A DNA stretch of 64,000 nucleotides from an uncultured Actinomycetota bacterium (GTDB lineage: Bacteria > Actinomycetota > Actinomycetes > Mycobacteriales > Pseudonocardiaceae), in the NCBI GenBank assembly GCA_963786585.1, contig CAWAZG010000006.1, positions 782,338-846,337 on the forward strand. Reading direction: 5' to 3'. The notes below the pieces were generated by a model. It was given only the letters and a program-made list of their open reading frames with translations. It searched no databases and had not been told where the DNA came from. Positions 14,304-35,675 of this stretch are shown here, piece after piece. How positions within the stretch are numbered: position 1 is the stretch's first letter; every line of letters begins with the position of its first letter. Made by a program: the position numbers and the translations under genes.

Positions 14304-14366
14304 ACCCGATCCGTACTCCTCGTAGCGGCGGCCCGCACGGTCACCTAGGTGATCGCGTCACTTACC

Positions 14367-14382
14367 GGTGACCGGCGTCACT
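14367..14382. promoter_or_regulatory. CRP/GlxR-like box upstream of hhyS
   Basis: GGTGA-ccggcg-TCACT; core GTGA-N6-TCAC intact; about 65 bp before hhyS. Confidence 0.45.
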
Positions 14383-14446: not shown

Positions 14447-15502
14447 GTGACGACGTTCGCCGACCATCGCGACACCACCGTGCACATCCTCTGGATGAAC
14501 GCCGGGCTGTCGTGCGACGGGGACTCGGTGGCCCTCACCGCGGCCACCCAGCCGAGCATCGAGGAGATCGCGCTCGGCGCTCTCCCGGGCCTGCCGACGG
14601 TCGCGGTGCACTGGCCGCTGATCGACTTCGAGTCCGGCCCGGTCGGCGGCTCCCAGTCCTTCATCGACTGGTTCTTCAAGGCCGAGCGGGGCGAGCTGGA
14701 CGGGCCCTTCGTCCTCGTCATCGAGGGCTCGATCCCCAACGAGTCGATCAAGTCCGAGGGGTACTGGTGCGGCTTCGGCAACAACCCGGTGACCGGGCAG
14801 CCGATGACCACCAGCGAGTGGATCGACCGTCTGGCCCCCAAGGCCCTGGGCATCCTCGCCGTCGGCACCTGCGCGACCTACGGCGGCATCCACGCCATGG
14901 CCGGCAACCCGACCGGCGCGATGGGCGTCGCGGACTACCTGGGCTGGGACTGGAAGTCCTCCGCCGGCCTGCCGATCGTCAACGTCCCGGGCTGTCCGGT
15001 GCACCCGGACAACCTCTCCGAGACGATCCTCTACCTGCTCTACCAGGCCGTGGGCGACGCCCCGATGATCCCGCTCGACGAGGCCGGCCGCCCGACATGG
15101 CTGTTCGGCGCCACCGTGCACGAGGGCTGTGACCGCGGCGGCTACTACGAGCAGGGCCAGTTCGCCACCGAGTACGGCTCACCGGAGTGCCTGGTCAAGC
15201 TCGGCTGCTGGGGTCCGGTCGTGAAGTGCAACGTCCCCAAGCGCGGCTGGATCAACGGCGTCGGCGGCTGTCCCAACGTGGGCGGCATCTGCATCGGCTG
15301 CACCATGCCCGGCTTCCCGGACAAGTTCATGCCGTTCATGGACGCCCCGCCGGGCAGCAAGGTCTCCGGCGCCGCCAGCGGTGCCTACGGCGTGGTGATC
15401 CGCAAGCTGCGCGACATCACGGCGAAGACCGTCGACAAGGAACCGCGCTGGCGTCGCCCGGGGCGGCAGCTGACGACCGGATACAGGCCCACCGCGTTCT
15501 GA
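14447..15502 (+). CDS. hhyS: group 1h [NiFe]-hydrogenase small subunit
   Basis: WMNAGLSCDGDS, GTCATYGG, PGCP, HEGCDR, CLVKLGCWGP, GGCPNVGGICIGC; no Tat signal. Confidence 0.93.
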   Translation: MTTFADHRDTTVHILWMNAGLSCDGDSVALTAATQPSIEEIALGALPGLPTVAVHWPLIDFESGPVGGSQSFIDWFFKAERGELDGPFVLVIEGSIPNESIKSEGYWCGFGNNPVTGQPMTTSEWIDRLAPKALGILAVGTCATYGGIHAMAGNPTGAMGVADYLGWDWKSSAGLPIVNVPGCPVHPDNLSETILYLLYQAVGDAPMIPLDEAGRPTWLFGATVHEGCDRGGYYEQGQFATEYGSPECLVKLGCWGPVVKCNVPKRGWINGVGGCPNVGGICIGCTMPGFPDKFMPFMDAPPGSKVSGAASGAYGVVIRKLRDITAKTVDKEPRWRRPGRQLTTGYRPTAF

Positions 15503-15551
15503 CGCGCGCACGAACTCCCCTGACGACCACCACGCCGAAGGGATGCCCGCG

Positions 15552-17357
15552 ATGACCGCCGTGGCACCGAAGAGCACGACCGGCAAGAAGACCGACCTCG
15601 TCGAGATGGCGTGGGACCCGATCACGCGCATCGTCGGCAGTCTGGGCATCTACACGAAAATCGACTTCGCGGCGAAACGCGTCGCCGAGTGCCATTCGAC
15701 GTCGTCGATCTTCCGTGGCTACTCCATCTTCATGAAGGGCAAGGACCCGCGGGACGCGCACTTCATCACGAGCAGGATCTGCGGAATCTGCGGTGACAAC
15801 CACGCGACGTGCTCGGTCTACAACCAGAACATGGCCTACGGGGTGCGCCCGCCGCACCTGGGCGAATGGATCATCAATCTCGGCGAGGCCGCCGAGTACA
15901 TGTTCGACCACAACCTCTACCAGGACAATCTCGCCTGCGTGGACTACTGCGAGAAGATGGTCGCGGACACGAACCCCGGGGTCCTCGAGCTCGCGAACCG
16001 CACACCGAGCCCGCACGCCGACGACCACGGCTTCCGCACCATCGGCGACATCATGCGGGCCCTCAACCCGTTCACCGGCGAGTTCTACCGCGAGACGCTG
16101 AAGGTCTCCCGCTACACACGCGAGATGTTCTGCCTGATGGAGGGGCGACACGTCCACCCGTCGACGCTCTATCCCGGCGGGGTCGGCACGGTGGCGACGA
16201 TCCAGCTCTTCACCGACTACATGACCCGGCTCATGTGGTACATCGAATTCATGAAGCGGGTCGTGCCGATGCACGACGATCTCTTCGACTTCATGTACGA
16301 GGCCCTTCCCGGCTACGAGGAGGTCGGTCGCCGCCGCGTCATCATCGGGTCGTGGGGGGCGTTCAACGACCCGGAGCACTGCGACTTCGACTACAAGACG
16401 ATGTCGAACTGGGGACGGAAGATGTTCGTCTCCCCCGGGGTCATCGTCGACGGGAAGCTCGTCACCACCGACCTGGTCGACATCAACCTCGGCATCCGCA
16501 TCCTGCTGGGCAGTTCCTTCTACCGGGGCTGGGAGGACCAGGAGAAGTTCGTCGACCGCGACCCGCTCGGCAATCCGGTCTCGATGGACCACCCCTGGAA
16601 CCAGCACACGATCCCGGCGCCGCAGAAGCGCGACTTCGACGACAAGTACTCGTGGACGATGTCGCCGCGCTGGTTCGACGGCACGGACCACCTCGCGATG
16701 GACACCGGCGGCGGCCCGCTGCCCCGGCTCTGGGTCACGGCGCTCGCCGGCCTGGTCGACGCCGGCGGCTACGTCCGGTCGACGGGACACAGCGTCGAGC
16801 TCAACCTCCCGCGCACGGTGTCGAAGCCCGAGACGACGTTCACGTGGACCCCGCCGGTCGACAAGCAGGGGCGTCCGCTGTCCAACGCCATCGAGCGGGA
16901 CCGCGCCCGGACCTACTTCCAGGCCTACGCCGCCGCGGCGGCGATGCACTTCCTGGAGAAGGCGCTCGCCGAGGTCCGCGGCGGGAACACCAAGACCTGG
17001 GAGTCGTTCGTCGTGCCCGACGAGTCGGTGAGCGTCGGCTTCACCGAGGCCGTCCGCGGCGTCCTCTCGCACCACATGGTCGTGCGCGACGGGAAGATCG
17101 CGAACTACCACCCGTACCCGCCGACGCCGTGGAACGGCAGCGTCCGCGACAAGTTCGGCACGCCCGGCCCGTACGAGGACGCCGTGCAGAACACCCCGAT
17201 CTTCGAGGAGAACGGCCCGGACACCTTCAAGGGCATCGACATCATGCGCGCGGTGCGCAGCTTCGACCCCTGCCTGCCGTGCGGGGTGCACATGTACCTC
17301 GGCAACGGCAAGCAGCTGCACCGGGAGACGTCACCGACCCAGCTGAACCTGCCCTGA
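15552..17357 (+). CDS. hhyL: group 1h [NiFe]-hydrogenase large subunit
   Basis: L1 SRICGICGDNH and L2 SFDPCLPCGVH, followed by a short C-terminal tail. Confidence 0.95.
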   Translation: MTAVAPKSTTGKKTDLVEMAWDPITRIVGSLGIYTKIDFAAKRVAECHSTSSIFRGYSIFMKGKDPRDAHFITSRICGICGDNHATCSVYNQNMAYGVRPPHLGEWIINLGEAAEYMFDHNLYQDNLACVDYCEKMVADTNPGVLELANRTPSPHADDHGFRTIGDIMRALNPFTGEFYRETLKVSRYTREMFCLMEGRHVHPSTLYPGGVGTVATIQLFTDYMTRLMWYIEFMKRVVPMHDDLFDFMYEALPGYEEVGRRRVIIGSWGAFNDPEHCDFDYKTMSNWGRKMFVSPGVIVDGKLVTTDLVDINLGIRILLGSSFYRGWEDQEKFVDRDPLGNPVSMDHPWNQHTIPAPQKRDFDDKYSWTMSPRWFDGTDHLAMDTGGGPLPRLWVTALAGLVDAGGYVRSTGHSVELNLPRTVSKPETTFTWTPPVDKQGRPLSNAIERDRARTYFQAYAAAAAMHFLEKALAEVRGGNTKTWESFVVPDESVSVGFTEAVRGVLSHHMVVRDGKIANYHPYPPTPWNGSVRDKFGTPGPYEDAVQNTPIFEENGPDTFKGIDIMRAVRSFDPCLPCGVHMYLGNGKQLHRETSPTQLNLP

Positions 17358-20548: not shown

Positions 20549-21072
20549 GGATCCTGGTCGCCGGGGTCGGCAACGTCTTCTTCGCCGACGACGGCTTCGG
20601 CTCCGAGGTGGCGCGACGCCTGCTCGCCGACCCCGGCGCGCTGCCGGCATCGGTGGACGTCGTCGACGTCGGCATCCGCGGCATGCACCTCGCCTACCAG
20701 GTGCTCGACGGCTACGAGGTTCTCGTCGTTGTCGACGCGGCCCCCCGGATCGATGACGGGGGCGAGGGTCCCCCCGGCACGCTGCACCTCGTCGAGCACG
20801 ACCTCGCGGCGGCCACCGGCGACGCGGCCTTCGACCCGCACGGCATGGAGCCCGACGCCGTCCTCGAGCTCGTCGGGGCGCTGGCCCGCGGGGTCGGCGC
20901 GGGCGGCGTCGACCGCGTGCTCGTCCTGGGCTGTGTCCCCGCCGACGCCGGCGCCGGGATGGGTCTGAGCCCGCCCGTGGCCGCGGCGGTCGACGAGGCG
21001 GTCGAGGCCGTCGGCCGGATCGTCGCCCGCCTGACCGAGAACCGTCCCTTCACCGAGGTGGGAGCGCCATGA
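20545..21072 (+). CDS. hydrogenase maturation endopeptidase
   Basis: MRILVAGVGNVFFADDGFG, DVGIRGMHL, DPHGM, LGCVP. Confidence 0.92.
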   Translation: MRILVAGVGNVFFADDGFGSEVARRLLADPGALPASVDVVDVGIRGMHLAYQVLDGYEVLVVVDAAPRIDDGGEGPPGTLHLVEHDLAAATGDAAFDPHGMEPDAVLELVGALARGVGAGGVDRVLVLGCVPADAGAGMGLSPPVAAAVDEAVEAVGRIVARLTENRPFTEVGAP

Positions 21073-21173
21073 CCAAGAAACTGCTGCTGCTGGGCCTGAT
21101 CGGCAGCGTCGGCTGGGTCGCGTACGACAACCGCGCCGACGTGCAGCGCTACCTGCGGATCCGGGCGATGTGA
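21069..21173 (+). CDS. 34-aa small membrane protein (not in ORF track)
   Basis: ATG overlaps protease stop; MTKKLLLLGLIGSVGWVAYDNRADVQRYLRIRAM*; ends 1 nt before hypA. Confidence 0.7.
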   Translation: MTKKLLLLGLIGSVGWVAYDNRADVQRYLRIRAM

Positions 21174-21174
21174 C

Positions 21175-21546
21175 GTGCACGAGTTCGGGGTGGCGGCCGC
21201 GGTCCTCGAGGCCGTCGACGCCCGGGCGGCGGGACGCTGCGTCGGCGCGCTGTGCCTGCACGTGGGCGCGCTGCAGCGCCTGGACCGAGCCGTCTTCGAC
21301 CAGGCCTTCGCGATGATCGCCGACGGCGGCGTCGCCGACGGCGCGACCGTCGACGTCGTCGAGGTCGACGTCACGGTCCGCTGCCGCGCGTGCACGGCGG
21401 AGGCCACCGCCACCGAACTGATCACCACGTGCCCGGCGTGCGCGGGCCACGATCTCGAGCTCGTCGCGGGCGACGACCTCGTCCTCGCGTCGATCACGCT
21501 CGCGGACCGGGACGCCCCGGACCGCGCGGAGCAGGAGGTGGGCTGA
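21175..21546 (+). CDS. hypA: hydrogenase nickel metallochaperone HypA
   Basis: MHE start, CRAC and CPAC zinc motifs. Confidence 0.92.
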   Translation: MHEFGVAAAVLEAVDARAAGRCVGALCLHVGALQRLDRAVFDQAFAMIADGGVADGATVDVVEVDVTVRCRACTAEATATELITTCPACAGHDLELVAGDDLVLASITLADRDAPDRAEQEVG

Positions 21547-21833: not shown

Positions 21834-22984
21834 AGTTCGTCGACGAGTTCCGCGACGCCGACACGGCCCGATCGGTGGCCGCGCGGATCGCCGCGCTCTG
21901 CGAGCCCGGCCGGCGGTACGCCTTCATGGAGGTCTGCGGCGGGCACACGCACACGATCTACAAGCACGGTCTCGAGGACCACCTGCCCGAATCGGTCCGC
22001 CTCGTCCACGGCCCCGGCTGCCCGGTCTGCGTGCTCCCGATGGGCCGGGTGGACGACGCGATCGCGATTGCGCAGCAGCCCGACGTGATCATGACGGCGT
22101 TCGGCGACATGATGCGGGTGCCCGGCGGGGACGGGTCCTTCTTCGACGCCAAGGCGGCCGGGGCCGACATCCGGATGGTCTACTCGCCCCTCGACGCCCT
22201 GAAGATCGCGCGCAACAACCCGGACCGCCGCGTGGTGTTCATGGCCATCGGCTTCGAGACCACGGCCCCGTCCACGGCGATGACCGTCCTGCGGGCCGCC
22301 CGCGAGGGGATCGAGAACTTCTCGATCTTCTGCAACCATGTCACGATCATCCCGGCGATCAAGGCCATCCTCGACTCGCCCGACCTGCGCCTCGACGGCT
22401 TCCTCGGCCCGGGCCACGTGTCCACCGTGATCGGCTGCCGGCCCTACGAGTTCATCGCCGCCCGCCACGGGAAGCCGCTCGTCACCGCGGGCTTCGAGCC
22501 GCTGGACATCCTGCAGTCGGTGCACCAGCTGATGCTCCAGCTGCACGACGGCCGCTGCGAGGTCGAGAACCAGTACAGCCGTGTGGTGCCCTGGAACGGC
22601 AACCGGCGGGCGCTCGAGGTCATCGGCGAGGTGATGGAGCTCCGGCCCTACTTCGAGTGGCGTGGGCTCGGGTTCATCTCGCAGTCCGCCATGCAGATGC
22701 GCGAGGAGTACGCGCGGTTCGACGCCGAACGGATCTTCGCGGTCCCGGGGGTCCGCGTCGCCGACCCGAAGGCGTGCCAGTGCGGCGAGGTGCTCAAGGG
22801 CGTCCTCGAGCCGTGGGAGTGCAAGGTCTTCGGGACCGCGTGCACCCCCGAGACGCCGATCGGCACCTGCATGGTGTCGTCCGAGGGCGCCTGCGCGGCC
22901 TACTACAACTTCGGCCGCTTCAGTCGCGAACGCGTCCGCGCCGGCGGCACCACGATGCTCGCGGACCCGGTGGTGCGGCGATGA
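21830..22984 (+). CDS. hypD: hydrogenase formation protein HypD
   Basis: MEVCGGHTH, GPGCPVC, GFETTAP, PGHVS, CMVSSEGAC. Confidence 0.96.
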   Translation: MKFVDEFRDADTARSVAARIAALCEPGRRYAFMEVCGGHTHTIYKHGLEDHLPESVRLVHGPGCPVCVLPMGRVDDAIAIAQQPDVIMTAFGDMMRVPGGDGSFFDAKAAGADIRMVYSPLDALKIARNNPDRRVVFMAIGFETTAPSTAMTVLRAAREGIENFSIFCNHVTIIPAIKAILDSPDLRLDGFLGPGHVSTVIGCRPYEFIAARHGKPLVTAGFEPLDILQSVHQLMLQLHDGRCEVENQYSRVVPWNGNRRALEVIGEVMELRPYFEWRGLGFISQSAMQMREEYARFDAERIFAVPGVRVADPKACQCGEVLKGVLEPWECKVFGTACTPETPIGTCMVSSEGACAAYYNFGRFSRERVRAGGTTMLADPVVRR

Positions 22985-24141
22985 GCACGAACGGCGTCCC
23001 CGCGAGCCCCACGGTCCACGCCGGCTGGGCCGAGGAGGCCGTGGCGACGCACGCCGGGGCCGAGCACCTGCGCAGCGAGGAGCAGGTGCTCGAGCGCATC
23101 GAGCGGGCGCGGCGGCGCCGGCCGCGGGTGCGGGAGGAGCGCATCACCCTCGCGCACGGGGCCGGGGGCAAGGCCACCCACACCCTCATCGACGCCGTGT
23201 TCGTCGAGGCGTTCCGCAATCCGGTCCTCGAACAGCTCGAGGACGGGGCGTCGCTGGAGGTGGGCGGGGCGCGCCTGGCGTTCACCACCGACTCGTACGT
23301 CGTCTCGCCGCTGTTCTTCCCCGGCGGCGACATCGGCGACCTCGCGGTCAACGGCACGGTCAACGACCTCGCGATGTGCGGGGCGCGGCCGCTGCACCTC
23401 TCGGCCGGGTTCATCCTCGAGGAGGGCTTCCCGGTCGCCGACCTGCGGCGGATCGCCGACTCGATGGCGCGCGCGGCCGCCGTCGCCGGGGTGCAGATCG
23501 TCACCGGAGACACCAAGGTCGTCCCGCGGGGCAAGGCCGACGGCTGCTTCATCACGACCGCCGGGGTCGGCCTCCTGGACCGGCCCCTCACCCTCAGCGC
23601 CACGGCGGCCTGCCCGGGCGACGCGGTGATCGTGTCCGGACCGCTCGGCGACCACGGCATCACGATCATGCTGGCCCGGGGCGAGCTCGACATCGAGGCG
23701 GACCTCTCCTCCGACACCGCCGCGCTGCACGGGCTCACGGCCGACCTGCTCGACGCCGGTGGCGACGGCGTCCGGGTGCTGCGCGACGCGACCCGCGGCG
23801 GGGTCGCCACCATCCTCAACGAGATCGCGGCCGCGTCCCAGGTCGCGGTCGTGGTGGACGAGGCCTCGGTCCCGGTGCGCGAGGTCGTCACCGGGGCGTC
23901 GGAACTGCTCGGGATCGACCCGCTCTACGTCGCCTGCGAGGGCCGCCTCGTCGCCGTGGTCGACCCCTCGCGGGCCGACGCCGTCGCGGCCGCACTCCGG
24001 GCCCACCCGCTCGGCGACGGCGCCGCCGTCATCGGGCACATCGCCGACGACCCGCCCGGGCTGGTGCTCCTGCGCACCGCGTTCGGCGGCACCCGGATCG
24101 TCGACATGCTCGTCGGCGACCCGCTGCCGCGCATCTGCTGA
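22981..24141 (+). CDS. hypE: hydrogenase expression/formation protein HypE
   Basis: HGAGG, TTDSYVV, GDTKVV, RDATRGG, C-terminal LPRIC. Confidence 0.96.
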   Translation: MSTNGVPASPTVHAGWAEEAVATHAGAEHLRSEEQVLERIERARRRRPRVREERITLAHGAGGKATHTLIDAVFVEAFRNPVLEQLEDGASLEVGGARLAFTTDSYVVSPLFFPGGDIGDLAVNGTVNDLAMCGARPLHLSAGFILEEGFPVADLRRIADSMARAAAVAGVQIVTGDTKVVPRGKADGCFITTAGVGLLDRPLTLSATAACPGDAVIVSGPLGDHGITIMLARGELDIEADLSSDTAALHGLTADLLDAGGDGVRVLRDATRGGVATILNEIAAASQVAVVVDEASVPVREVVTGASELLGIDPLYVACEGRLVAVVDPSRADAVAAALRAHPLGDGAAVIGHIADDPPGLVLLRTAFGGTRIVDMLVGDPLPRIC

Positions 24142-24155
24142 GACGAGGAGGAGAC

Positions 24156-24506
24156 GTGGACGACGCCGAGAAGGACGCTGCGGAGGGCGCCGCGCGGGCG
24201 TTCGACGCCTCGAACGCCCCGCCCCCGGGCCCCGGGCGCGAGCCCTCGCCGGAGGAGGCGGAGGGGATGAAGGACACCGACACGACACCGAAGGGCCCCC
24301 TCGGGGTGGGCGAGAGCATCAACGCCCGCGCCGAGGACATCGCCCGCGCGGCCGAGGAGAAGCGGGGTTCCGACCGCGAGGGCACGAAGGGTGCGGCGGG
24401 GCGCCCCTACGGCAGCGGAGATCCGCAGGACGCCGAAGGCGTCGAGCCGAACCCGTCGGTCACCCCGGGGAGCCCGGACCTCCCGCCGGGCGATCAGGGC
24501 AGCTGA
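24156..24506 (+). CDS. hypothetical acidic, Pro/Gly-rich low-complexity protein
   Basis: Strong GAGGAGGAG RBS before GTG; GC3-rich codons; 3' end overlaps the convergent SIS gene by 47 bp. Confidence 0.6.
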   Translation: MDDAEKDAAEGAARAFDASNAPPPGPGREPSPEEAEGMKDTDTTPKGPLGVGESINARAEDIARAAEEKRGSDREGTKGAAGRPYGSGDPQDAEGVEPNPSVTPGSPDLPPGDQGS

Positions 24507-25164
24507 GGGCCCGGAGGGTCAGCTCGCCCAGCACCTGGTAGACGGTGGTCTGGGCCTCCTGGATGCGGTGCACGGACGACGACGGCATGACGAACAGGTG
24601 GTCGACGGTGTCGACCTCGGCCATCCGGCCGCCGTCATACCCCGCCAGCCCGACCGTGAGCATGCCCCGGCGGCGCGCCTCGGCGAGCCCGCGCAGCACG
24701 TTCGTCGAGCCGCCGCTCGTCGACAGCCCGAGGGCGATGTCCCCGGCGCGTCCGGACGCCGCGAGCGGGCGGGCGAAGACCACCTCGAAGGACACGTCGT
24801 TGGACAGGGCGGTGAGGACCGCGACGTCCGCGGTGAGGGCGATCGCGGGGAGGCCGGCGCCCGGGTCCCCGGGTGCGGAGAACATCTCGGCGACCGCCTG
24901 CGCGTCGGTGCTGCTGCCGCCGTTGCCGAACGAGAACAACCGCCCGCCCGCCGCGAACGCCGCCGCCATCTCGCCGGCGCAGGTCACGAGGTCGTCGGCG
25001 TAGCTCGCCAGCACCCGCTCGCGCAGCACCGCGATCTCCGCGACCTTCTCCCGCGTGGAGCGGCGGACCTCGGAGAACACCTCCTGCTCGCGGGCCGCGT
25101 GGTCCTTCGGCTCCTCGTCGGCGCAGGGGTAGAGGAACGGGTAGAGCGACTCGACGCCGCTCAC
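24460..25164 (-). CDS. SIS-domain protein (GmhA-like) 2
   Basis: FGNGGSSTDAQ, ALSNDV, STSGGS, GLAGYDGG, HRIQE. Confidence 0.88.
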   Translation of the reverse strand: MSGVESLYPFLYPCADEEPKDHAAREQEVFSEVRRSTREKVAEIAVLRERVLASYADDLVTCAGEMAAAFAAGGRLFSFGNGGSSTDAQAVAEMFSAPGDPGAGLPAIALTADVAVLTALSNDVSFEVVFARPLAASGRAGDIALGLSTSGGSTNVLRGLAEARRRGMLTVGLAGYDGGRMAEVDTVDHLFVMPSSSVHRIQEAQTTVYQVLGELTLRALSCPDRPAGGPGSPG

Positions 25165-25760
25165 CGCGCGGTCCCCCGCTCGAGGAACACGTGCGCCAGC
25201 TCCCACAGCACGTGGTAGATCGTCACGTGCATCTCCTTGACCACGAAGGGGTCGGTGGAACGGACCCGCAGCACGTGGTCCAGGCCCGGCACGGCTGCGA
25301 CCGCTCCCCCGTCACCCCCGATCAGGGCGACGGTGAGCAGGCCGTGGTCGTGCGCCTCCCGGAGGGCCCGGGCCACGTTCGGGCACTCCCCGTCCACGGT
25401 GATCCCGACCGCGATGTCGTCCGGGCGGGCCTGGGCCCGGAGCTGGGCGGCGAAGGTGTCCTCGAAGCCGGAGCGGCGGGCGATCCCGGTGAGGGTCGCG
25501 GGGTCGGTGACCAGCGAGACCGCCGGGAGGGCGCGCTTGCCCACGATCACCGGGTGGACGAACTCGACGGCGAGGTGCGCGGCGTCCGCGGCCGCCGCGC
25601 CGTTGCCGAAGGTGATCAGCCGCCCGCCGCGGGAGAAGCGCTCGGCCATCGCGTGACAGGCGTCGGCGATGCGATCGGCCTCCTCGGCCAGGGCAGTGGT
25701 GGCCGGTTTCCGCCGGGCGAACGCCTCCACCGCGTCCTCCCGGGTCAGCGTCGTCATCAT
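25161..25760 (-). CDS. SIS-domain protein (GmhA-like) 1
   Basis: FGNGAAAADAAH, HPVIVGKRALPA, LIGGDGG, VKEMHVTIYH. Confidence 0.88.
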   Translation of the reverse strand: MMTTLTREDAVEAFARRKPATTALAEEADRIADACHAMAERFSRGGRLITFGNGAAAADAAHLAVEFVHPVIVGKRALPAVSLVTDPATLTGIARRSGFEDTFAAQLRAQARPDDIAVGITVDGECPNVARALREAHDHGLLTVALIGGDGGAVAAVPGLDHVLRVRSTDPFVVKEMHVTIYHVLWELAHVFLERGTAR

Positions 25761-28047
25761 CGATCGACCTCCGTCGACGAGGGGTTGGTGGGTGCGGGGG
25801 CGCAGGCGGCCACCGCCGCCTGGCCGAGGCTCAGGCCGCCGTCGGTGCACGGCACGCGCTCGTGGACCAGGACGCGCAGACCGGCGGCCTCCAGCCCGGC
25901 GCGGACGCGCTCGAGCAGGACGAGGTTGACGAACACCCCGCCGGACAGCGCGGCTGTCGTCACGCCGTGCTCCGCGGCCGCGGCGACCGCCGCGCGGACC
26001 GTCGCGTCGGCGAGGCCGTGGTGGAAGCGCGCGGCGATGCGGCCCCGTTCGACGCCCGCCCGGACGTCGGCGACGGCGGCGGCCACGAGGTCGCCGGCCG
26101 GGATCACGCCGTCGACGGCCTCGCCGACCGGGTACGCCGCGCGCTCGGCGGGATCGACGTACTGCTCCAGCTCCATCGCGGCCTGGCCCTCGTAGGTCGT
26201 CGTGTCCCGGACGCCGAGCACGGCCGCGACCGCGTCGAAGAGCCGCCCGGCGCTCGAGGTCCGCAGCGTCGACGCCGAGCGGGCCAGCGTCGCGACCGCC
26301 TCCCACCGCTCCTGACGCCGGGCCACGGCGAGGTCCGCCCCGGACGCCCCCAGCCAGGCCGCCGCCATCCGCCACGGCGCCCGGACCGCCGCCGCTCCCC
26401 GGGCAGCCCGACGGTCTCGAGGTGCCCGACCCGCTCCGCGCCCCGCAGTGACGCGAGCAGCAGCTCCCCGCCCCAGATCGTCCCGTCGGGGCCCCAGCCG
26501 GTGCCGTCGTAGGCGACGCCGAGCACCGGGGGGTCGTCGGGGCCCCGGCCGTGCTCGGCCAGGCACGACGCGATGTGGGCGTGGTGGTGCTGGACCCCGA
26601 CCGCCGTGAGGTCGTCCCGGTCGAGGGCGTAGGTCGTCGACCGGTACTCGGGGTGCAGGTCGTGGGCGACGACCTCGGGCTCGATGTCGAAGAGCCGCCC
26701 GATGTGCGTGACCGCGTCGGTGTAGGCCCGCAGCGTCGCGAGGTTCTCGAGGTCGCCGATGTGGGCGGAGAGGAACGCCCGCGTCCCGGCGGCCAGGGTG
26801 ATCGTCACCTTCTGCTCGCCCCCGCAGGCCAGCACGGGCCGCCCGACGGCGAATCCCAGCGTCACCGGTTCGGGGGCGTACCCGCGGGCCCGGCGCACCG
26901 GAAGGACACGACGGCGCGCGACCCTCGCGACCGAGTCGTCGACCCGGGTCCGGATGGGGCGGTCGTGGGTCAGGAACCCGTCGACGAGCGGGGCGAGCCG
27001 GGCCGCGGCGTCGTCGTCGCGGTGGGCGATCGGCTCGTCGGAGACGTTGCCGCTGGTCAGCACGAGGGGGACGTCGACGTCCCGGGCGAGCAGCCGGTGC
27101 AACGGGGTCGGCGGGAGCAGGATCCCGAGCTCGCCCGTCGCCGGGGCCACCGCGGGCGCGACGGCGGCCCCCGGGCGCCACGGGAGCAGCACGATCGGGC
27201 GCTGCCGCGACGTCAGCAGGCCCGCGACGTCCTCGTCGACGACGACCAGCTCCGCCGCCGCGTCCAGGTCGGCGGCGAGCACCGCGAAGGGCTTGTCCTC
27301 GCGGTGCTTGGCCGCCCGCAGCCGGGCCACCGCGTCCTCGTCGTCGGCCCGCACCGCGAGGTGGTACCCGCCGAGGCCCTTCACCGCGAGGATCTGCCCC
27401 GCCAGCAGGCGCGCCGCGGCGCGGGTCAGCACACCGTCGGACGAGTCGGACGAGCCGTCGAGGCGCAGGGTCGGTCCGCAGTCGTGGCAGCAGACGGGCT
27501 GGGCGTGGAAGCGGCGGTCGGTCGGGTCGTGGTACTCAGCGGTGCAGGCCGGGCACATCGGGAAGCCGGCCATGGTGGTGGTCGCCCGGTCGTAGGGGAC
27601 GTCGCACACGATACTGAACCGCGGTCCGCAGTTCGTGCAGGTGATGAACGGGTGGCGGTGGCGCCGGTCGGCCGGGTCGTCGAGCTCGGCCAGGCAGTCC
27701 GTGCACGGGGCGGTGTCGGCCGAGACCGTCGTGCGTGGACCCCCGGCTCCGGTCGCGCTCGCCGCGATGAGGAAGCCGGGCGCTCCGGTGGACGCCACCG
27801 GACGGCGGCGCACGGACTCCACCAGCGCCAACGGCGGCGCGTCGGTGCGCAGGGCGACGACGAACGCCTCCACCGCCTCCGGCGCGCCCTCGACCTCGAC
27901 CACCACGCCGGCGTCGTCGTTGCCGACGTACCCGTCGAGGGCGAGCCGCCCGGCGAGCCCGTGGACGAACGGCCGGAAGCCGACGCCCTGCACGATGCCG
28001 GTGACCGAGAGGTGCGCGCGCACGCGGACCGGCGGCGGGACCGTCAC
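25757..28047 (-). pseudogene. hypF: carbamoyltransferase HypF, frameshifted at about 26397-26400 (mutation or sequencing error)
   Basis: GIVQGVGFRP, two zinc fingers, KGLGGY, LTSGN, QHHHAH, DGTGWG in one frame; PWRMA, TSSAGRLFDA, YEGQAA, SGGVF, DGGLSLGQ in another; one extra G in a G4 run restores LPGGAAAVRAPWRMA. Confidence 0.85.
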
Positions 28048-28060
28048 CGCCCGGCCCTCC

Positions 28061-28315
28061 TCACGGTGGGCCCAGCGCGGCGATCGCCTCCCCGGCGTGC
28101 ACGAGCACGACGTCACCGACCGCGGCGTCCACGAGGGCCACGGACACCTCCTCCTCACCGGCCCCGGTGTCGACGCGGGCGGTGCCGTCGGGGTGCAGGG
28201 CCACCACGGTCACCCGGACCGCCTGGTCGGAGCAGGTGATGCAGACGGGGCCCTCGCAGGGCGCGCGGACTGCGGCCGGTGGCGCGGAGGTCTCGCAGGC
28301 CAGGAACCAGGTCAC
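28061..28315 (-). CDS. second, atypical HypC/HupF-like chaperone
   Basis: CITCSD motif, then VSVALVDAAVGDVVLVHAGEAI (HypC OB-fold signature). Confidence 0.75.
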   Translation of the reverse strand: MTWFLACETSAPPAAVRAPCEGPVCITCSDQAVRVTVVALHPDGTARVDTGAGEEEVSVALVDAAVGDVVLVHAGEAIAALGPP

Positions 28316-28659
28316 GACGTCGCCTCCGATCCCATCGCGCGGCCGCAGCGCCCGAGGAACGAGTGCAGCAGCTGGTGGGTGGCCTCCAGCGTCTCGATCT
28401 GGCGGCGCAGGCTGTCCGACCCGGCCGGGGTCAGCGCGTAGGTCCGCCGTGCGGGCCCGGTGGCCGGGATGCTCCACGTCGACCGGACGAGGCCTTCGCG
28501 CTCGAACGACCGCAGGGTGCGGTAGACGCCGCCGGCATCGGTGTCGTCGATCAACGAGGCGTGGAGTCGCTCCACGAGGTCGTACCCGTGCGCGGCCCGT
28601 TCCTGGATGAGCAGGAGCAGGCACGGCCGCAGGAAGTTCCGGGGTTCGCACTCGCCCAT
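28312..28659 (-). CDS. PadR-family (PhaQ-like) transcriptional regulator
   Basis: NFLRPCLLLLI, HGYDL, GGVYRTLR, GPARRTYALT; stop overlaps start of hypC-like gene. Confidence 0.9.
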   Translation of the reverse strand: MGECEPRNFLRPCLLLLIQERAAHGYDLVERLHASLIDDTDAGGVYRTLRSFEREGLVRSTWSIPATGPARRTYALTPAGSDSLRRQIETLEATHQLLHSFLGRCGRAMGSEATS

Positions 28660-28707
28660 GGCCGCCCCCTGGCGAGGGTCCCGGGGGCCAGGGGATCCCG
28701 TTGCTCG

Positions 28708-28723
28708 TGTGGTGTGTATCACA
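28708..28723. promoter_or_regulatory. CRP/GlxR-like box in divergent promoter region
   Basis: TGTGG-tgtgta-TCACA, 9/10 match to TGTGA-N6-TCACA; 49 bp upstream of PadR start. Confidence 0.6.
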
Positions 28724-28739
28724 TAGGGTGGCACCGGTC

Positions 28740-29441
28740 GTGACGCCGAGCAAGACCGCGAACGAGGTGCTGGGACCGATGGACGAGGCGACACGGGCCC
28801 TGATGGGGCTCTGGGACGTGGCCGGCGAGAACGTCCGCGCGCTCCGGGCCGACGACTGGGCGCGGCCGCTGCCCCACGCCGGTGTCGGGCCCGCCGACGT
28901 CGCAGAGCTCGCGGTCCACCTCACCGGGGTGCACTACGCCGGGCCGGAGACGCTGCGCGAGGCCGTCGCGGCCGCACGTCACCGCGCGGAGACCCAGCTG
29001 GCCGGCCGCACGAGCGGCGACCCGGTGCTCGGCGCCCAGTGCCTCGACATGTGCCTGCACGTCCACGACCTGACCGCGGCCCTCGGCGCCCCGGCCGACC
29101 TGCGCGACCACGAGGCGGCCGCCCGCGAGGCGTGCCGGCTCGTCCTGCGTGTGCTGCCGCGCCTGCTCGTCGCGGCGGTGGGGGCCGACGACGCGACGCT
29201 GCGCGTGGCGGTGCGCCTCGGCGACGACCGCGCCGTGCACGTCACCCATGGCTCCGTCGTCCCGGCCCGCCCAGAGGACACAGCCGATGCCGCGGACGCC
29301 GTCGAGATCGATCCGGGCGGGCTCCTGCTGTTGCTCGCGGGGCGCCGCGACGCCGAGTCGTTGCGCGACGCGGGTGCGCTGAGCTGGACCGGACCGGCCG
29401 CGGAGGCGTTCGTCCACCGCGCCCGGCTGGTCGCGGCGTAG
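28740..29441 (+). CDS. hypothetical protein, MDMPI/DinB-like N-terminus with SCP2-like C-terminus (start uncertain)
   Basis: DWARP, ELAVHL, DMCLHVHDLTAALG, LLLLAGRR. Confidence 0.6.
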   Translation: MTPSKTANEVLGPMDEATRALMGLWDVAGENVRALRADDWARPLPHAGVGPADVAELAVHLTGVHYAGPETLREAVAAARHRAETQLAGRTSGDPVLGAQCLDMCLHVHDLTAALGAPADLRDHEAAAREACRLVLRVLPRLLVAAVGADDATLRVAVRLGDDRAVHVTHGSVVPARPEDTADAADAVEIDPGGLLLLLAGRRDAESLRDAGALSWTGPAAEAFVHRARLVAA

Positions 29442-34041: not shown

Positions 34042-35616
34042 TCAGAGCAGGGACAGCTGCTCCGGGGGCGCCTCGACCACCTTCTCCGGGATCACGGGCA
34101 CGGCACCTTCCGGCCACGACCGCTCGGTCTCCCGCCCCTCGTCGCCCTGCCGGCCGCCCATGGCGTGGCCGCCACCGGTGAGACCGTGGCGTGCGAGCAG
34201 CGGCCCGACGCGCGCGGCGAGCTCCTTGCGGTAGGCCGCGTCGACATAGGCCCCGCGGCGGTAGAGGGCGGCGTAGCGCTCGATCAGCGCGGGGTGCTCG
34301 CGGGCGAGCCAGGCGTGGAACCACTCCCGCGTGCCCGGCCGCAGGTGCAGGGCGAGCACGGACGCGCCGCTCGCCCCCGCTGCGGCGATCTCGCCGAGCA
34401 GGGCGTCGAGGGCCTCGTCGGAGTCGGTGAGCCCGGGCAGGACCGGGGCGACGAACACCCCGCACGGCAGCCCGGCGTCGCGGATGCGGCGGACGAGGTC
34501 GAGCCGGGCCCGGGGCGTCGGCGTGCCCGGCTCGACGCGGCGGTGCAGCTCCGGATCGAGCAGGGCCAGCGACACCCCGACCCCCACGGGGACGTCGCGC
34601 GCGGCGGCCGCGAGCTCCGGGAGGTCGCGGGCGAGGAGCGTGCCCTTGGTGAGGATCGAGAACGGCGTGCCGCTGGCCCCCAGGGCCTTGATGATCCCGG
34701 GCATCAGCGCGTACCGGCCCTCCGCGCGCTGGTAGGGGTCGGTGTTGGTGCCCATCGCAACGTGCTCGCGGGCCCAGCGCGGCGCGCGCAGCTCGCGGGC
34801 CAGCACCTCGGGCGCGTTCAGCTTGACCACGACCTGGCGGTCGAAGTCGTCGCCCGCGTCGAGGTCGAGATAGGTGTGGGTGTTGCGGGCGAAGCAGTTG
34901 TGGCTGATCACCCCGTCGGCGACGAAGTCGCCGGTGCCGGTGGTGAGGTCGCCGAGGGCACGCTCGCCGGGCAGCTCGTCCACCTCGACGACGACGCGGC
35001 CGCCGGGCTCGTCGCCGGGCGGCGCCGGGGCCACCGGCGGCGACCCGGGCCGGCGGAACGCCTCGTCGGCCAGGGTCTCGGCGCCGACCAGGGCCTCGCC
35101 GATCCGCAGGTGCGGCCGCTCGTCACCGCCGCAGCCCTCCGGCCGCACGTGGACCCAGCCGCGGCGCGTGAGGAAGCGGTGCTCGGCGCTGGCGACGATC
35201 GCCGTGCCGTCGAGCAGACGGACACACCAGGCCGCCTTCGTCGTGGTCCACGCGGCGTGCACCGGCGTCGGCACCAGCGACCGGACGCCGTTGCTGCGCA
35301 CCTCGGAGCCCACCACGAGATCGCCGACCCGGACGTCGGCCAGCCGCACGCTGGTGCCGTCGACCATGAGGATCCTGGTGTCGAGCGAGAGGCAGTAGGT
35401 GCACGCGTGGCTGCACCCCCGGTAGGGGTTCACGGTCCAGGCGAAGGGCATCGGCGACACCCCGGGCACGCGGTTGAGCACCGAGCGCGCCCGCACCTCG
35501 TGGAAGGTGATCCCCGCGAACTCCGGCGTGCGGACGCTGCGCACGAGGCCCTTGAGCGCCGGCATGCCCGGCAGCTCCTCGGGGCCTCCCGCGACCTTCT
35601 GCTCGTCCCACCGCAC
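34042..35616 (-). CDS. intein-containing Rv2578c-family radical SAM protein
   Basis: WTVNPYRGCSHACTY|intein|CFARNTH, MGTNTDPYQRAEG, ILTKG, TPTPRARL. Confidence 0.93.
   Translation of the reverse strand: MRWDEQKVAGGPEELPGMPALKGLVRSVRTPEFAGITFHEVRARSVLNRVPGVSPMPFAWTVNPYRGCSHACTYCLSLDTRILMVDGTSVRLADVRVGDLVVGSEVRSNGVRSLVPTPVHAAWTTTKAAWCVRLLDGTAIVASAEHRFLTRRGWVHVRPEGCGGDERPHLRIGEALVGAETLADEAFRRPGSPPVAPAPPGDEPGGRVVVEVDELPGERALGDLTTGTGDFVADGVISHNCFARNTHTYLDLDAGDDFDRQVVVKLNAPEVLARELRAPRWAREHVAMGTNTDPYQRAEGRYALMPGIIKALGASGTPFSILTKGTLLARDLPELAAAARDVPVGVGVSLALLDPELHRRVEPGTPTPRARLDLVRRIRDAGLPCGVFVAPVLPGLTDSDEALDALLGEIAAAGASGASVLALHLRPGTREWFHAWLAREHPALIERYAALYRRGAYVDAAYRKELAARVGPLLARHGLTGGGHAMGGRQGDEGRETERSWPEGAVPVIPEKVVEAPPEQLSLL
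34897..35394 (-). mobile_element. 166-aa mini-intein without homing endonuclease
   Basis: Block A CLSLDTRILMVDG, block B ASAEHRFLT, blocks F/G DLTTGTGDFVADGVISHN followed by Cys+1. Confidence 0.92.
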
Positions 35617-35625
35617 GCCCACCAT

Positions 35626-35641
35626 TCGAACACGTGTTCGA
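35626..35641. promoter_or_regulatory. LexA SOS box
   Basis: Perfect palindrome TCGAAC-ACGT-GTTCGA, about 10 bp upstream of the radical SAM start. Confidence 0.9.
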
Positions 35642-35675
35642 GCGGTAGGCAAACCCCCGTCCGGCGTCCACCATC

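What the first reader, a model, noticed from the sequence alone, without database searches (positions are those of the whole stretch)
28061..28723. PhaQ-like PadR regulator heading the hydrogenase maturation operon
Seen: the PadR stop overlaps the hypC2 start, so it is the first gene of the hypC2-hypF-SIS-SIS unit. Its sequence (PRNFLRPCLLLL...HGYDL...GGVYRTLR...GPARRTYALT) resembles, from memory, the PhaQ subgroup of PadR, and it has three Cys. I know of no established dedicated local regulator for group 1h clusters. Inference: a ligand-, redox- or metal-responsive regulator gating cofactor synthesis separately from the structural genes.
Basis: partly seen in the sequence, partly recalled or inferred. 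Interest (0 to 1): 0.58.

Follow-up and report, generated by a model that had tools for sequence, protein, structure and literature searches.

The report
PadR regulator heading hydrogenase-maturation operon
A small PadR-type DNA-binding protein is the first gene of the operon that makes part of the metal cofactor of an air-hydrogen-scavenging hydrogenase, and relatives of it sit in the same place in about a dozen actinobacterial families, so it is a good but untested candidate for a local switch of hydrogenase maturation.

Summary
A 115-aa PadR-family gene (28312-28659, minus strand) overlaps the next gene by GTGA. It heads a tightly coupled unit padR-hypC2-hypF-SIS-SIS that converges on hhySL...hypACDE in an Actinomycetospora genome. 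The best named model is PhaQ (TIGR02719), but at 77.8 bits against a cut-off of 139, so it is PhaQ-like and not PhaQ.

New here: the linkage is conserved. All 11 genus genomes with the gene have hhyL. In 400 sampled Actinomycetes, the 11 genomes (11 families) with a clade member all have it within 5 kb of hypF or a [NiFe] large subunit. Only about 10% of hhyL-positive genomes carry it. The five PadR-negative clusters I inspected have no padR-headed convergent hyp operon; in four of them hypF lies in the main operon.

A dyad (GTGA-N7-CAC, 28709-28722) is conserved upstream in 28 of 32 Pseudonocardiaceae loci. It is the best match in the genome, and no match lies upstream of hhyS. Operon-head members share a fixed N-terminus, M-x-x-C-E-P, plus Cys13.

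Most likely this is an autoregulated local repressor of the maturation operon. The signal is unknown and nothing has been tested at the bench. In this assembly hypF carries a frameshift. The scan noted the same padR-SIS-hypC-SIS-hypF module in another genome (e1-2472125).

The parts
28312..28659 (-). padR: 115-aa PadR-family (subfamily-2 type) regulator. N-terminus MGECEPRNF; Cys at positions 4, 13 and 105.
   Evidence: Pfam PF03551, 3.1e-15. TIGR02719, 77.8 bits, below cut-off. AF2 model pLDDT 83.9 with a winged-helix domain plus one long C-terminal helix. Foldseek top hits are all PadR proteins, TM 0.7-0.76.
28709..28722 (-). Candidate operator: dyad GTGA-N7-CAC (22-mer 28705-28726), 50-63 bp upstream of the padR ATG.
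   Evidence: [GA]TGA-N7-CAC is present at -80..-40 in 28 of 32 Actinomycetospora/Pseudonocardia-type loci, in 23 distinct versions, against 0.0055 expected per sequence. It is the top PWM score in the 6-Mb genome, 27.3 against 22.1 for the next hit, though the site is part of the training set.
28725..28753 (-). Inferred padR promoter: -35 TTGCTC (28748-28753), 17-nt spacer, -10 CACCCT (28725-28730). The dyad would cover the transcription start.
   Evidence: Read by eye from the sequence and from TTGTCN-N17-GAC(A/G)CT in orthologues. The E. coli-type scanner found nothing. Inference only.
28701..28729 (+). Inferred divergent promoter of the DinB-like gene: -35 TTGCTC (28701-28706), 17-nt spacer that holds the dyad, -10 TAGGGT (28724-28729). 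GTG start at 28740, nearly leaderless.
   Evidence: Sequence inspection. Inference only.
28061..28315 (-). hypC2: divergent HupF/HypC-family chaperone with an internal CITCSD motif instead of an N-terminal Met-Cys.
   Evidence: PF01455, 37.2 bits. TIGR00074, 23.4 bits, below cut-off. Follows padR in all Actinomycetospora loci.
25757..28047 (-). hypF (carbamoyltransferase), split by a 1-nt deletion near 26385 relative to the orthologue.
   Evidence: Pfam domains are split over two frames. tblastn and DNA alignment against Actinomycetospora sp. CA-101289. It is the only hypF copy in the genome.
25161..25760 (-). SIS-domain protein 1 (4-nt overlap with hypF).
   Evidence: PF13580, 59.8 bits. Junction sequence.
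24460..25164 (-). SIS-domain protein 2 (4-nt overlap with SIS1); last gene of the unit.
   Evidence: PF13580, 58.9 bits. Junction sequence.
28740..29441 (+). Divergent DinB-like gene. It neighbours padR only in Actinomycetospora.
   Evidence: Weak PF12867 hit. Present next to padR in 11 of 17 Actinomycetospora loci and in none of the others.

Best explanation
The gene encodes a homodimeric PadR-type winged-helix transcription factor dedicated to the hydrogenase-maturation arm of a group 1h [NiFe]-hydrogenase cluster. It most likely binds the dyad GTGA-N7-CAC at 28709-28722. By my promoter reading, this dyad lies over the start of its own transcript and inside the spacer of the divergent promoter. 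Binding would repress its own operon, padR-hypC2-hypF-SIS-SIS, until an unknown signal releases it. Supply of the CN-ligand machinery (HypF) and of the HypC2/SIS accessory proteins would then be set separately from hhySL.

Shown: gene identity, fold, operon structure, conserved linkage, and the conserved upstream dyad.

Inferred: DNA binding at that dyad, repression rather than activation, and the existence of an effector.
For: Family and fold:
- PF03551 above cut-off.
- AF2 model with the PadR-s2 architecture. Foldseek hits only PadR proteins, prob 1.0.
- The DNA-reading motifs HGYDL, VYRTLR and GPARRTY are invariant in the clade.

Operon:
- GTGA overlap with hypC2, then 13-nt, 4-nt and 4-nt junctions.
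- [AG]TGA is kept in 11 of 11 orthologues that have a stop.

Linkage:
- Within the genus, 11 of 24 genomes have the gene and all 11 have hhyL. The 11 hhyL-negative genomes all lack it.
- In 73 loci from genome contigs it heads padR-hypC2-hypF-SIS-SIS in Actinomycetospora. It heads padR-SIS1-hypC2-SIS2-hypF in Pseudonocardia, Micromonospora and Microtetraspora.
- In the class sample of 400 genomes, 11 hits at E<=1e-18 fall in 11 families. All lie within 5 kb of hypF or a NiFe large subunit. That is 9 of 88 hhyL-positive genomes against 2 of 312 hhyL-negative ones. Two of the 11, G059 and G064, are unpublished genomes; without them it is 9 of 9.
- In the quick tree, a 44-row group (aLRT 87) holds 39 linked rows.
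- None of five PadR-negative clusters has a padR-headed convergent hyp operon. In four, hypF sits inside the co-directional main operon; in G109, hypF converges on SIS1-SIS2.

Operator:
-. No PWM match upstream of hhyS or hypA.
Against: - There is no experimental evidence of binding or regulation.
- The dyad is conserved only within Pseudonocardiaceae plus one other family (G094). Other families have different upstream sequences.
- My promoter hexamers are read by eye, and the consensus scanner found none.
- Some PadR proteins are activators (AphA).
- About 90% of hhyL-positive Actinomycetes sampled do without this gene, including all 8 of the genus that, by its placement, I take to be mycobacterial, and 17 of 18 of the likely Streptomyces genus. 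It is therefore an accessory, not a core part of group 1h regulation.
- In this assembly hypF is frameshifted, so the regulated operon may be defective here.
Confidence: 0.6

Rival explanations
1. The PadR controls the whole hydrogenase cluster, including the structural operon hhySL, by also binding upstream of hhyS.
For: - The hhyS upstream region carries a strongly conserved element, CCTAGGTGAT..TCACTTACC (14344-14366). It shares the CTA-G-GTGA half with padR-upstream sites of some Actinomycetospora.
- A perfect palindrome GTGACCGGCGTCAC (14368-14381) has GTG-N8-CAC spacing.
- The element occurs in several PadR-positive lineages: G094, G263, G126 and G391.
Against: - The PWM score there is only 1.4, against 27.3 at padR.
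- The conserved element has N7 spacing, and its GTG is lost outside Actinomycetospora.
- The 14368 palindrome is not conserved in the other Actinomycetospora genomes.
- The same CACTTACC element is present in G199, whose cluster has hypB/hypA in place of a PadR.
Confidence: 0.15
2. The PadR mainly regulates the divergent DinB-like gene, as a stress or detoxification pair, and its position next to hyp genes is incidental.
For: - The dyad lies exactly in the 17-nt spacer of the inferred DinB-like promoter.
- The DinB-like gene is the divergent neighbour in 11 of 17 Actinomycetospora loci.
- Many PadR proteins control detoxification genes (general knowledge).
Against: - The DinB-like neighbour is missing in Pseudonocardia, Micromonospora, Microtetraspora and all class-level loci, whereas the hyp/SIS genes downstream are kept.
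- The start-stop overlap ties padR to hypC2.
Confidence: 0.08
3. In this strain the module is a decaying remnant. hypF is a pseudogene, hypB is missing, and the PadR no longer matters for H2 oxidation.
For: - There is a 1-nt deletion in the only hypF copy.
- No TIGR00073 hypB match was found in the 95%-complete genome.
- The hypD-to-hypC2 segment was replaced by recombination.
Against: - All other cluster genes are intact and keep high GC3.
- padR is 100% identical to that of A. chibensis.
- A single-base indel in a 7-contig assembly may be a sequencing error.
- This would concern one strain only, not the clade.
Confidence: 0.12
4. The protein acts as an activator or as a non-DNA-binding partner of the HypC2/SIS maturation proteins rather than as a repressor.
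For: - Translational coupling gives fixed stoichiometry with HypC2.
- The clade-specific N-terminal M-x-x-C-E motif could be a protein or metal contact.
- In one MAG species, sampled twice (L011 and L032, the same contig), padR, hypC2 and hypF lie in one open frame.
Against: - All PadR DNA-binding signatures are invariant.
- A conserved dyad sits at the promoter.
- The one-frame case comes from metagenome bins only.
Confidence: 0.08

Closest known systems
PadR subfamily-2 regulators with solved structures (TM0937/2esh, BC4206/4esb, LmrR/3f8b, Rv3488/5zhc, Listeria 6abt)
   Same: - About 110 aa, with an N-terminal winged helix-turn-helix and one long C-terminal dimerisation helix.
- The gene is the first of the operon it presumably controls.
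- The upstream dyad has 4-bp half-sites 8 bp apart. From my own knowledge, this is the geometry of the ATGT-N8-ACAT operators of B. subtilis PadR and LmrR.
   Different: - Sequence identity is only 20-30%.
- The target operon is hydrogenase maturation, not drug efflux or phenolic-acid detoxification.
- It has a fixed N-terminal M-x-x-C-E-P motif.
- The half-sites are GTG/CAC rather than ATGT/ACAT.
PhaQ (TIGR02719), the poly-beta-hydroxybutyrate-responsive repressor of Bacillus megaterium
   Same: It is the best-scoring named HMM, 77.8 bits over residues 5-102. JGI pipelines label many clade members with this name.
   Different: - The score is far below the equivalog cut-off of 139.35.
- The neighbours are hyp/SIS genes, not pha genes.
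Known regulators of uptake hydrogenases: HoxJ/HoxA with a regulatory hydrogenase (C. necator), DosR acting on hhy in M. smegmatis, GylR-linked catabolite repression of huc (PMC13098282)
   Same: They control when hydrogenase genes are expressed.
   Different: They are two-component or global regulators that act on the structural operons. None is a PadR protein encoded inside the maturation operon. According to PMC13098282, the direct regulators of Hhy induction are still unknown.
Earlier scan finding e1-2472125 (padR-SIS-HypC-like-SIS-hypF operon in another genome)
   Same: The same module and the same gene order that I found in Pseudonocardia-type loci.
   Different: That follow-up dealt with the SIS/HypC-like proteins. 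This report deals with the regulator, its distribution, its operator and its N-terminal motif.

Membership tests
PadR family (Pfam PF03551) | Winged helix-turn-helix domain matching the family HMM above the gathering score. | tested here: met
   56.4 bits against a cut-off of 27, residues 14-85 covering profile positions 1-74 of 75.
PadR family, subfamily 2 (short, about 110 aa) | Fold: alpha1-alpha2-alpha3-wing followed by a single long C-terminal helix. | tested here: met
   The AF2 model has H10-20, H25-35, H42-54, E58-63, E71-76 and H78-114, pLDDT 83.9. Foldseek top hits are 3hhh, 6abt, 4esb, 2esh and 5zi8, TM 0.69-0.76.
PadR family | A dimer binds an inverted repeat in its own promoter (autoregulation). 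| tested here: inconclusive
   A conserved GTGA-N7-CAC dyad lies upstream in 28 of 32 loci. There is no binding assay, and the dyad is not conserved outside Pseudonocardiaceae.
PhaQ (TIGR02719 equivalog) | HMM score at or above the curated cut-off of 139.35 bits. | tested here: not met
   77.8 bits.
PhaQ (TIGR02719 equivalog) | Encoded in a pha (PHB synthesis or granule) gene cluster. | tested here: not met
   The neighbours are hypC2, hypF, two SIS genes and a DinB-like gene here, and hyp/SIS genes in all 41 operon-head loci.
PhaQ (TIGR02719 equivalog) | Binds PHB and is released from DNA by it. | not testable with these tools
   Needs biochemistry.
Thiol- or metal-sensing regulator (functional class) | Invariant Cys (or His) ligand set across the clade. 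| tested here: inconclusive
   C4 in 34 of 41 and C13 in 39 of 41 operon-head members. C105 occurs only in Actinomycetospora. C13 is also found in 19 of 35 unlinked relatives.

The most novel reading that the evidence does not exclude
The operon-head clade is a nickel- (or redox-) responsive PadR. Its N-terminus is fixed three residues before an almost invariant Cys: M-G-E-C-E-P, or M-H-x-C-E-P in other families. Together with Cys13 on helix 1 at the dimer interface, this would form a metal or thiol switch of the kind seen at the N-termini of HypA (MHE) and RcnR. The cell would then start the CN-ligand and HypC2/SIS arm of [NiFe] cofactor assembly only when nickel or the right redox state is available. 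This would be the first dedicated sensor-regulator of atmospheric-H2 hydrogenase maturation and a new sensing mode in the PadR family.
Probability: 0.15. Interest if true: 0.72.

Novelty: new member of a known kind. Interest (0 to 1): 0.45.

Why it matters
Group 1h hydrogenases are the main biological sink for atmospheric H2. What switches them on is still unknown: PMC13098282 (2026) lists Hhy induction as open. This PadR clade offers a concrete, small, testable candidate for local control of cofactor maturation. It covers roughly one in ten hhyL-bearing Actinomycetes, including Actinomycetospora, Pseudonocardia, Micromonospora, Microtetraspora and others, and comes with a defined candidate operator and a clade-specific N-terminal Cys motif to mutate. 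It also shows that many databases label these genes 'PHB-responsive repressor', which is probably wrong. The limits are that it is absent from the model organisms, that the mechanism type (an autoregulating PadR at the head of an operon) is ordinary, and that nothing has been tested at the bench.

Tried and rejected
1. I scanned the whole genome with a PWM of the dyad for further regulon members. The next-best sites lie beside GntR/FCD, ROK, Rieske, SBP56 and PucR genes, with no nickel or hydrogenase genes. They are probably other regulators' sites.
2. I looked for the dyad upstream of hhyS and hypA. Scores were 1.4 and 1.1.
3. I tested whether the conserved hhyS-upstream element (CACTTACC) depends on the PadR. 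It is also present in G199, which has hypB/hypA and no PadR in the gap.
4. I tried to transfer the dyad to operon-head loci of other families. Only G094 has it.
5. An apparent hairpin in the padR 5' leader that covers the ribosome-binding site is no more stable than shuffles, z = 0.65.
6. The E. coli-type promoter/terminator scan of 28250-28850 found nothing.
7. Literature searches for PadR or PhaQ together with hhyL, hypF or group 1h gave no relevant paper. Two apparent hits were author names, Padron and Padro.
8. The careful tree did not finish in 300 s, so only the quick tree is reported.

Full report
**Observation**

The window is 74% G+C. Its padR is 100% identical to that of Actinomycetospora chibensis JCM 17978. 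GC3-guided ORF calling and Pfam scans give two convergent arms.

The plus arm holds these genes:
- hhyS 14447-15502
- hhyL 15543-17357
- a NifU-like gene
- DUF5947
- DUF6084
- a 451-aa protein
- hupD
- hypA 21175-21546
- hypC1
- hypD
- hypE, ending at 24141

The minus arm holds these genes:
- padR 28312-28659
- hypC2 28061-28315
- hypF 25757-28047
- SIS1 25161-25760
- SIS2 24460-25164

The padR stop TGA shares three bases with a GTG that opens hypC2 (GTGA). The next junction is a 13-nt gap containing GGAGGG, and the last two are 4-nt overlaps. No terminator-like site lies around the padR/hypC2 junction. The protein has Cys at positions 4, 13 and 105.

**Family**

Pfam PF03551 scores 56.4 bits against a cut-off of 27. 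The best NCBIfam model is TIGR02719 (PhaQ) at 77.8 bits, well under its cut-off of 139.35. JGI pipelines nevertheless name many relatives 'poly-beta-hydroxybutyrate-responsive repressor'.

The closest solved sequence is TM0937 (2esh, E 6.6e-11). An AlphaFold model (pLDDT 83.9; residues 1-5 disordered) has the short PadR architecture: a winged helix-turn-helix plus one long C-terminal helix. Foldseek returns only PadR proteins at the top. So it is a PadR subfamily-2 protein, PhaQ-like by nearest model, but not PhaQ.

**Linkage to hydrogenase genes**

Within the genus:
- 11 of 24 other genomes have an orthologue (74-93% identity). All 11 have hhyL.
- The 11 genomes without hhyL also lack the gene.
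- Two hhyL-positive genomes without a match are 84% and 59% complete.
- In every orthologous locus the gene is followed by hypC2 and hypF.

A pattern scan of one genome per species returned 73 loci.
- 17 Actinomycetospora loci have padR-hypC2-hypF(-SIS-SIS).
- About 15 Pseudonocardia-type loci, plus Micromonospora globispora and Microtetraspora sp., have padR-SIS1-hypC2-SIS2-hypF.
- Other actinobacterial MAGs have it divergent from hypC1DE-hhySL or a few kb from hhySL.
- Dormibacteria and one Chloroflexota MAG have it next to more distant [NiFe] large subunits.
- Relatives below roughly 50% identity (Acidimicrobiales, Anaerolineae, Spirochaetes) show no hydrogenase genes within 10 kb.

In an even sample of 400 Actinomycetes genomes at least 90% complete:
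- 11 genomes in 11 families have a match at E<=1e-18.
- In all 11 it lies within 5 kb of hypF or of a [NiFe] large subunit.
- hhyL (E<=1e-150) is present in 88 of the 400. The PadR is in 9 of these 88, and in 2 of the 312 without hhyL. Both of those two are still hydrogenase-linked.
- Two of the 11 (G059, G064) are unpublished genomes. The claim stands without them, at 9 of 9.

Related genomes are not independent, so I give counts and no test.

A quick ML tree places 39 linked rows in one 44-row group (aLRT 87). Four of its five 'unlinked' rows are of a type in which hhyL lies about 15 kb away.

I inspected five PadR-negative clusters. In four of them hypF lies inside the co-directional main operon. 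In the fifth (G109) hypF converges on SIS1-SIS2. None has a padR-headed convergent hyp operon. The regulator therefore goes with the architecture in which the maturation genes form their own transcription unit.

**Candidate operator**

Upstream regions of Actinomycetospora and Pseudonocardia loci are otherwise hard to align, but they share a dyad, [GA]TGA-N7-CAC.
- It lies 40-80 bp before the start codon in 28 of 32 loci, in 23 distinct versions.
- The background rate in the same loci predicts 0.0055 per sequence.
- In the window it is GTGATACACACCAC at 28709-28722.
- A PWM built from these sites scores it 27.3, the best site in the 6-Mb genome. The next hit scores 22.1, and the site itself is part of the training set.
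- Nothing else in the 64-kb window exceeds 12.8. The hhyS and hypA upstream regions score 1.4 and 1.1.

Reading promoters by eye, which is inference only:
- TTGCTC-N17-CACCCT on the minus strand would start the padR transcript within the dyad.
- TTGCTC-N17-TAGGGT on the plus strand would drive the nearly leaderless DinB-like gene, with the dyad in its spacer.

This position suits a repressor. Half-sites of 3-4 bp separated by 8 bp match the geometry of the ATGT-N8-ACAT operators known for B. subtilis PadR and LmrR (my own knowledge, not tested here). The motif does not carry over to operon-head loci of other families, except G094.

**Clade-specific features**

In the 41 operon-head members the start codon sits exactly 12 codons before the invariant C-L-L-L. 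This gives M-x-x-C-E-P-R-N-F, for example MGEC, MHEC, MHTC, MQAC and MKPC.

| Residue | Operon-head members | Unlinked relatives |
|---|---|---|
| C4 | 34 of 41 | 6 of 35 |
| E5 | 95% | 11% |
| C13 | 39 of 41 | 19 of 35 |
| C105 | Actinomycetospora only | - |

The unlinked relatives also have longer N-termini. The fixed, disordered N-terminal tail with Cys and Glu is the best hint of a sensing site. It recalls N-terminal nickel sites of HypA and RcnR (my own knowledge), but this is speculation.

**What I conclude**

The most likely reading (about 0.6) is a local, autoregulated PadR repressor of the padR-hypC2-hypF-SIS-SIS operon with an unknown effector. The rivals are:
- It also controls hhySL. 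The conserved hhyS-upstream element at 14344-14366 shares a half-site, but it occurs in G199 without any PadR.
- It belongs to the divergent DinB-like gene. That neighbour is confined to Actinomycetospora.
- The module is decaying in this strain.
- It is an activator or a protein partner.

**Novelty**

I found no paper linking PadR or PhaQ to group 1h clusters. PMC13098282 states that how Hhy is induced is unknown. The scan noted the same module in another genome (e1-2472125). The kind of system, a PadR autoregulator at the head of an operon, is ordinary. What is new is the target operon, the conserved linkage and the N-terminal motif.

**Side observations**

- hypF carries a 1-nt deletion near 26385 relative to its orthologue. 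It is the only hypF copy in the genome.
- No hypB was found.
- The stretch 22000-28250 (hypD to hypC2) is only 72-82% identical to A. chibensis, whereas the flanks are 95-97% identical. It resembles Actinomycetospora sp. CA-101289 instead (84-94%).
- A. chibensis and A. callitridis lack the two SIS genes.
- The right-hand recombination breakpoint falls at the padR/hypC2 junction.

Noticed in passing
window 26370-26400 (hypF, minus strand): hypF is split into two frames by a 1-nt deletion relative to the Actinomycetospora sp. CA-101289 orthologue (CCCGG-GG against CCCGGCGG). It is the only hypF in the genome. This is either a real pseudogene or an assembly error.
   Followed up: partly
whole genome G000; window 21072-21175: No hypB (TIGR00073) match was found anywhere in the 95%-complete genome. 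hypA follows hupD directly, with no room for hypB.
   Followed up: partly
window 22000-28250: The cluster is a mosaic. hypD-hypE-SIS2-SIS1-hypF-hypC2 is only 72-82% identical to A. chibensis, while both flanks are 95-97% identical. The segment is closest to Actinomycetospora sp. CA-101289 (84-94%). A. chibensis and A. callitridis lack the two SIS genes (window 24507-25800). The right breakpoint lies at the padR/hypC2 junction.
   Followed up: partly
window 14344-14381: A conserved element CCTAGGTGAT..TCACTTACC lies upstream of hhyS. It is shared by Actinomycetospora and several other families, including one without the PadR. It is absent from the clusters I take to be mycobacterial, which have TTGACA-N17-TAGACC instead. 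It may be an unusual promoter or the site of another regulator. Next to it is a palindrome GTGACCGGCGTCAC that is specific to this window.
   Followed up: partly
L011 (G012:C7) and L032 (the same contig, found by a second route): In one MAG species, padR, hypC2 and hypF run in a single open frame without stop codons (open frame 1584 aa). This is either a fusion or an assembly artefact.
   Followed up: no
window 28061-28315: HypC2 lacks the canonical N-terminal Met-Cys. It has an internal C-I-T-C-S-D motif after a poorly conserved 20-30-residue leader, and it scores below the TIGR00074 cut-off.
   Followed up: no
window 24156-24506 (+): A 116-aa acidic, low-complexity ORF with high GC3 lies after hypE. 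It overlaps the 3' end of SIS2 on the other strand and has no Pfam match.
   Followed up: no
window 34042-35652 (-): A radical SAM gene with a Hint/intein-like insert. Another agent of this scan has already followed it up (e1-5225945).
   Followed up: no
L038-L051 (Pseudonocardia loci): Pseudonocardia PadR orthologues carry C-terminal extensions (143-257 aa in total). They also have a second upstream dyad, TGAGAC-N6-GTCTCA, downstream of the inferred -10.
   Followed up: no
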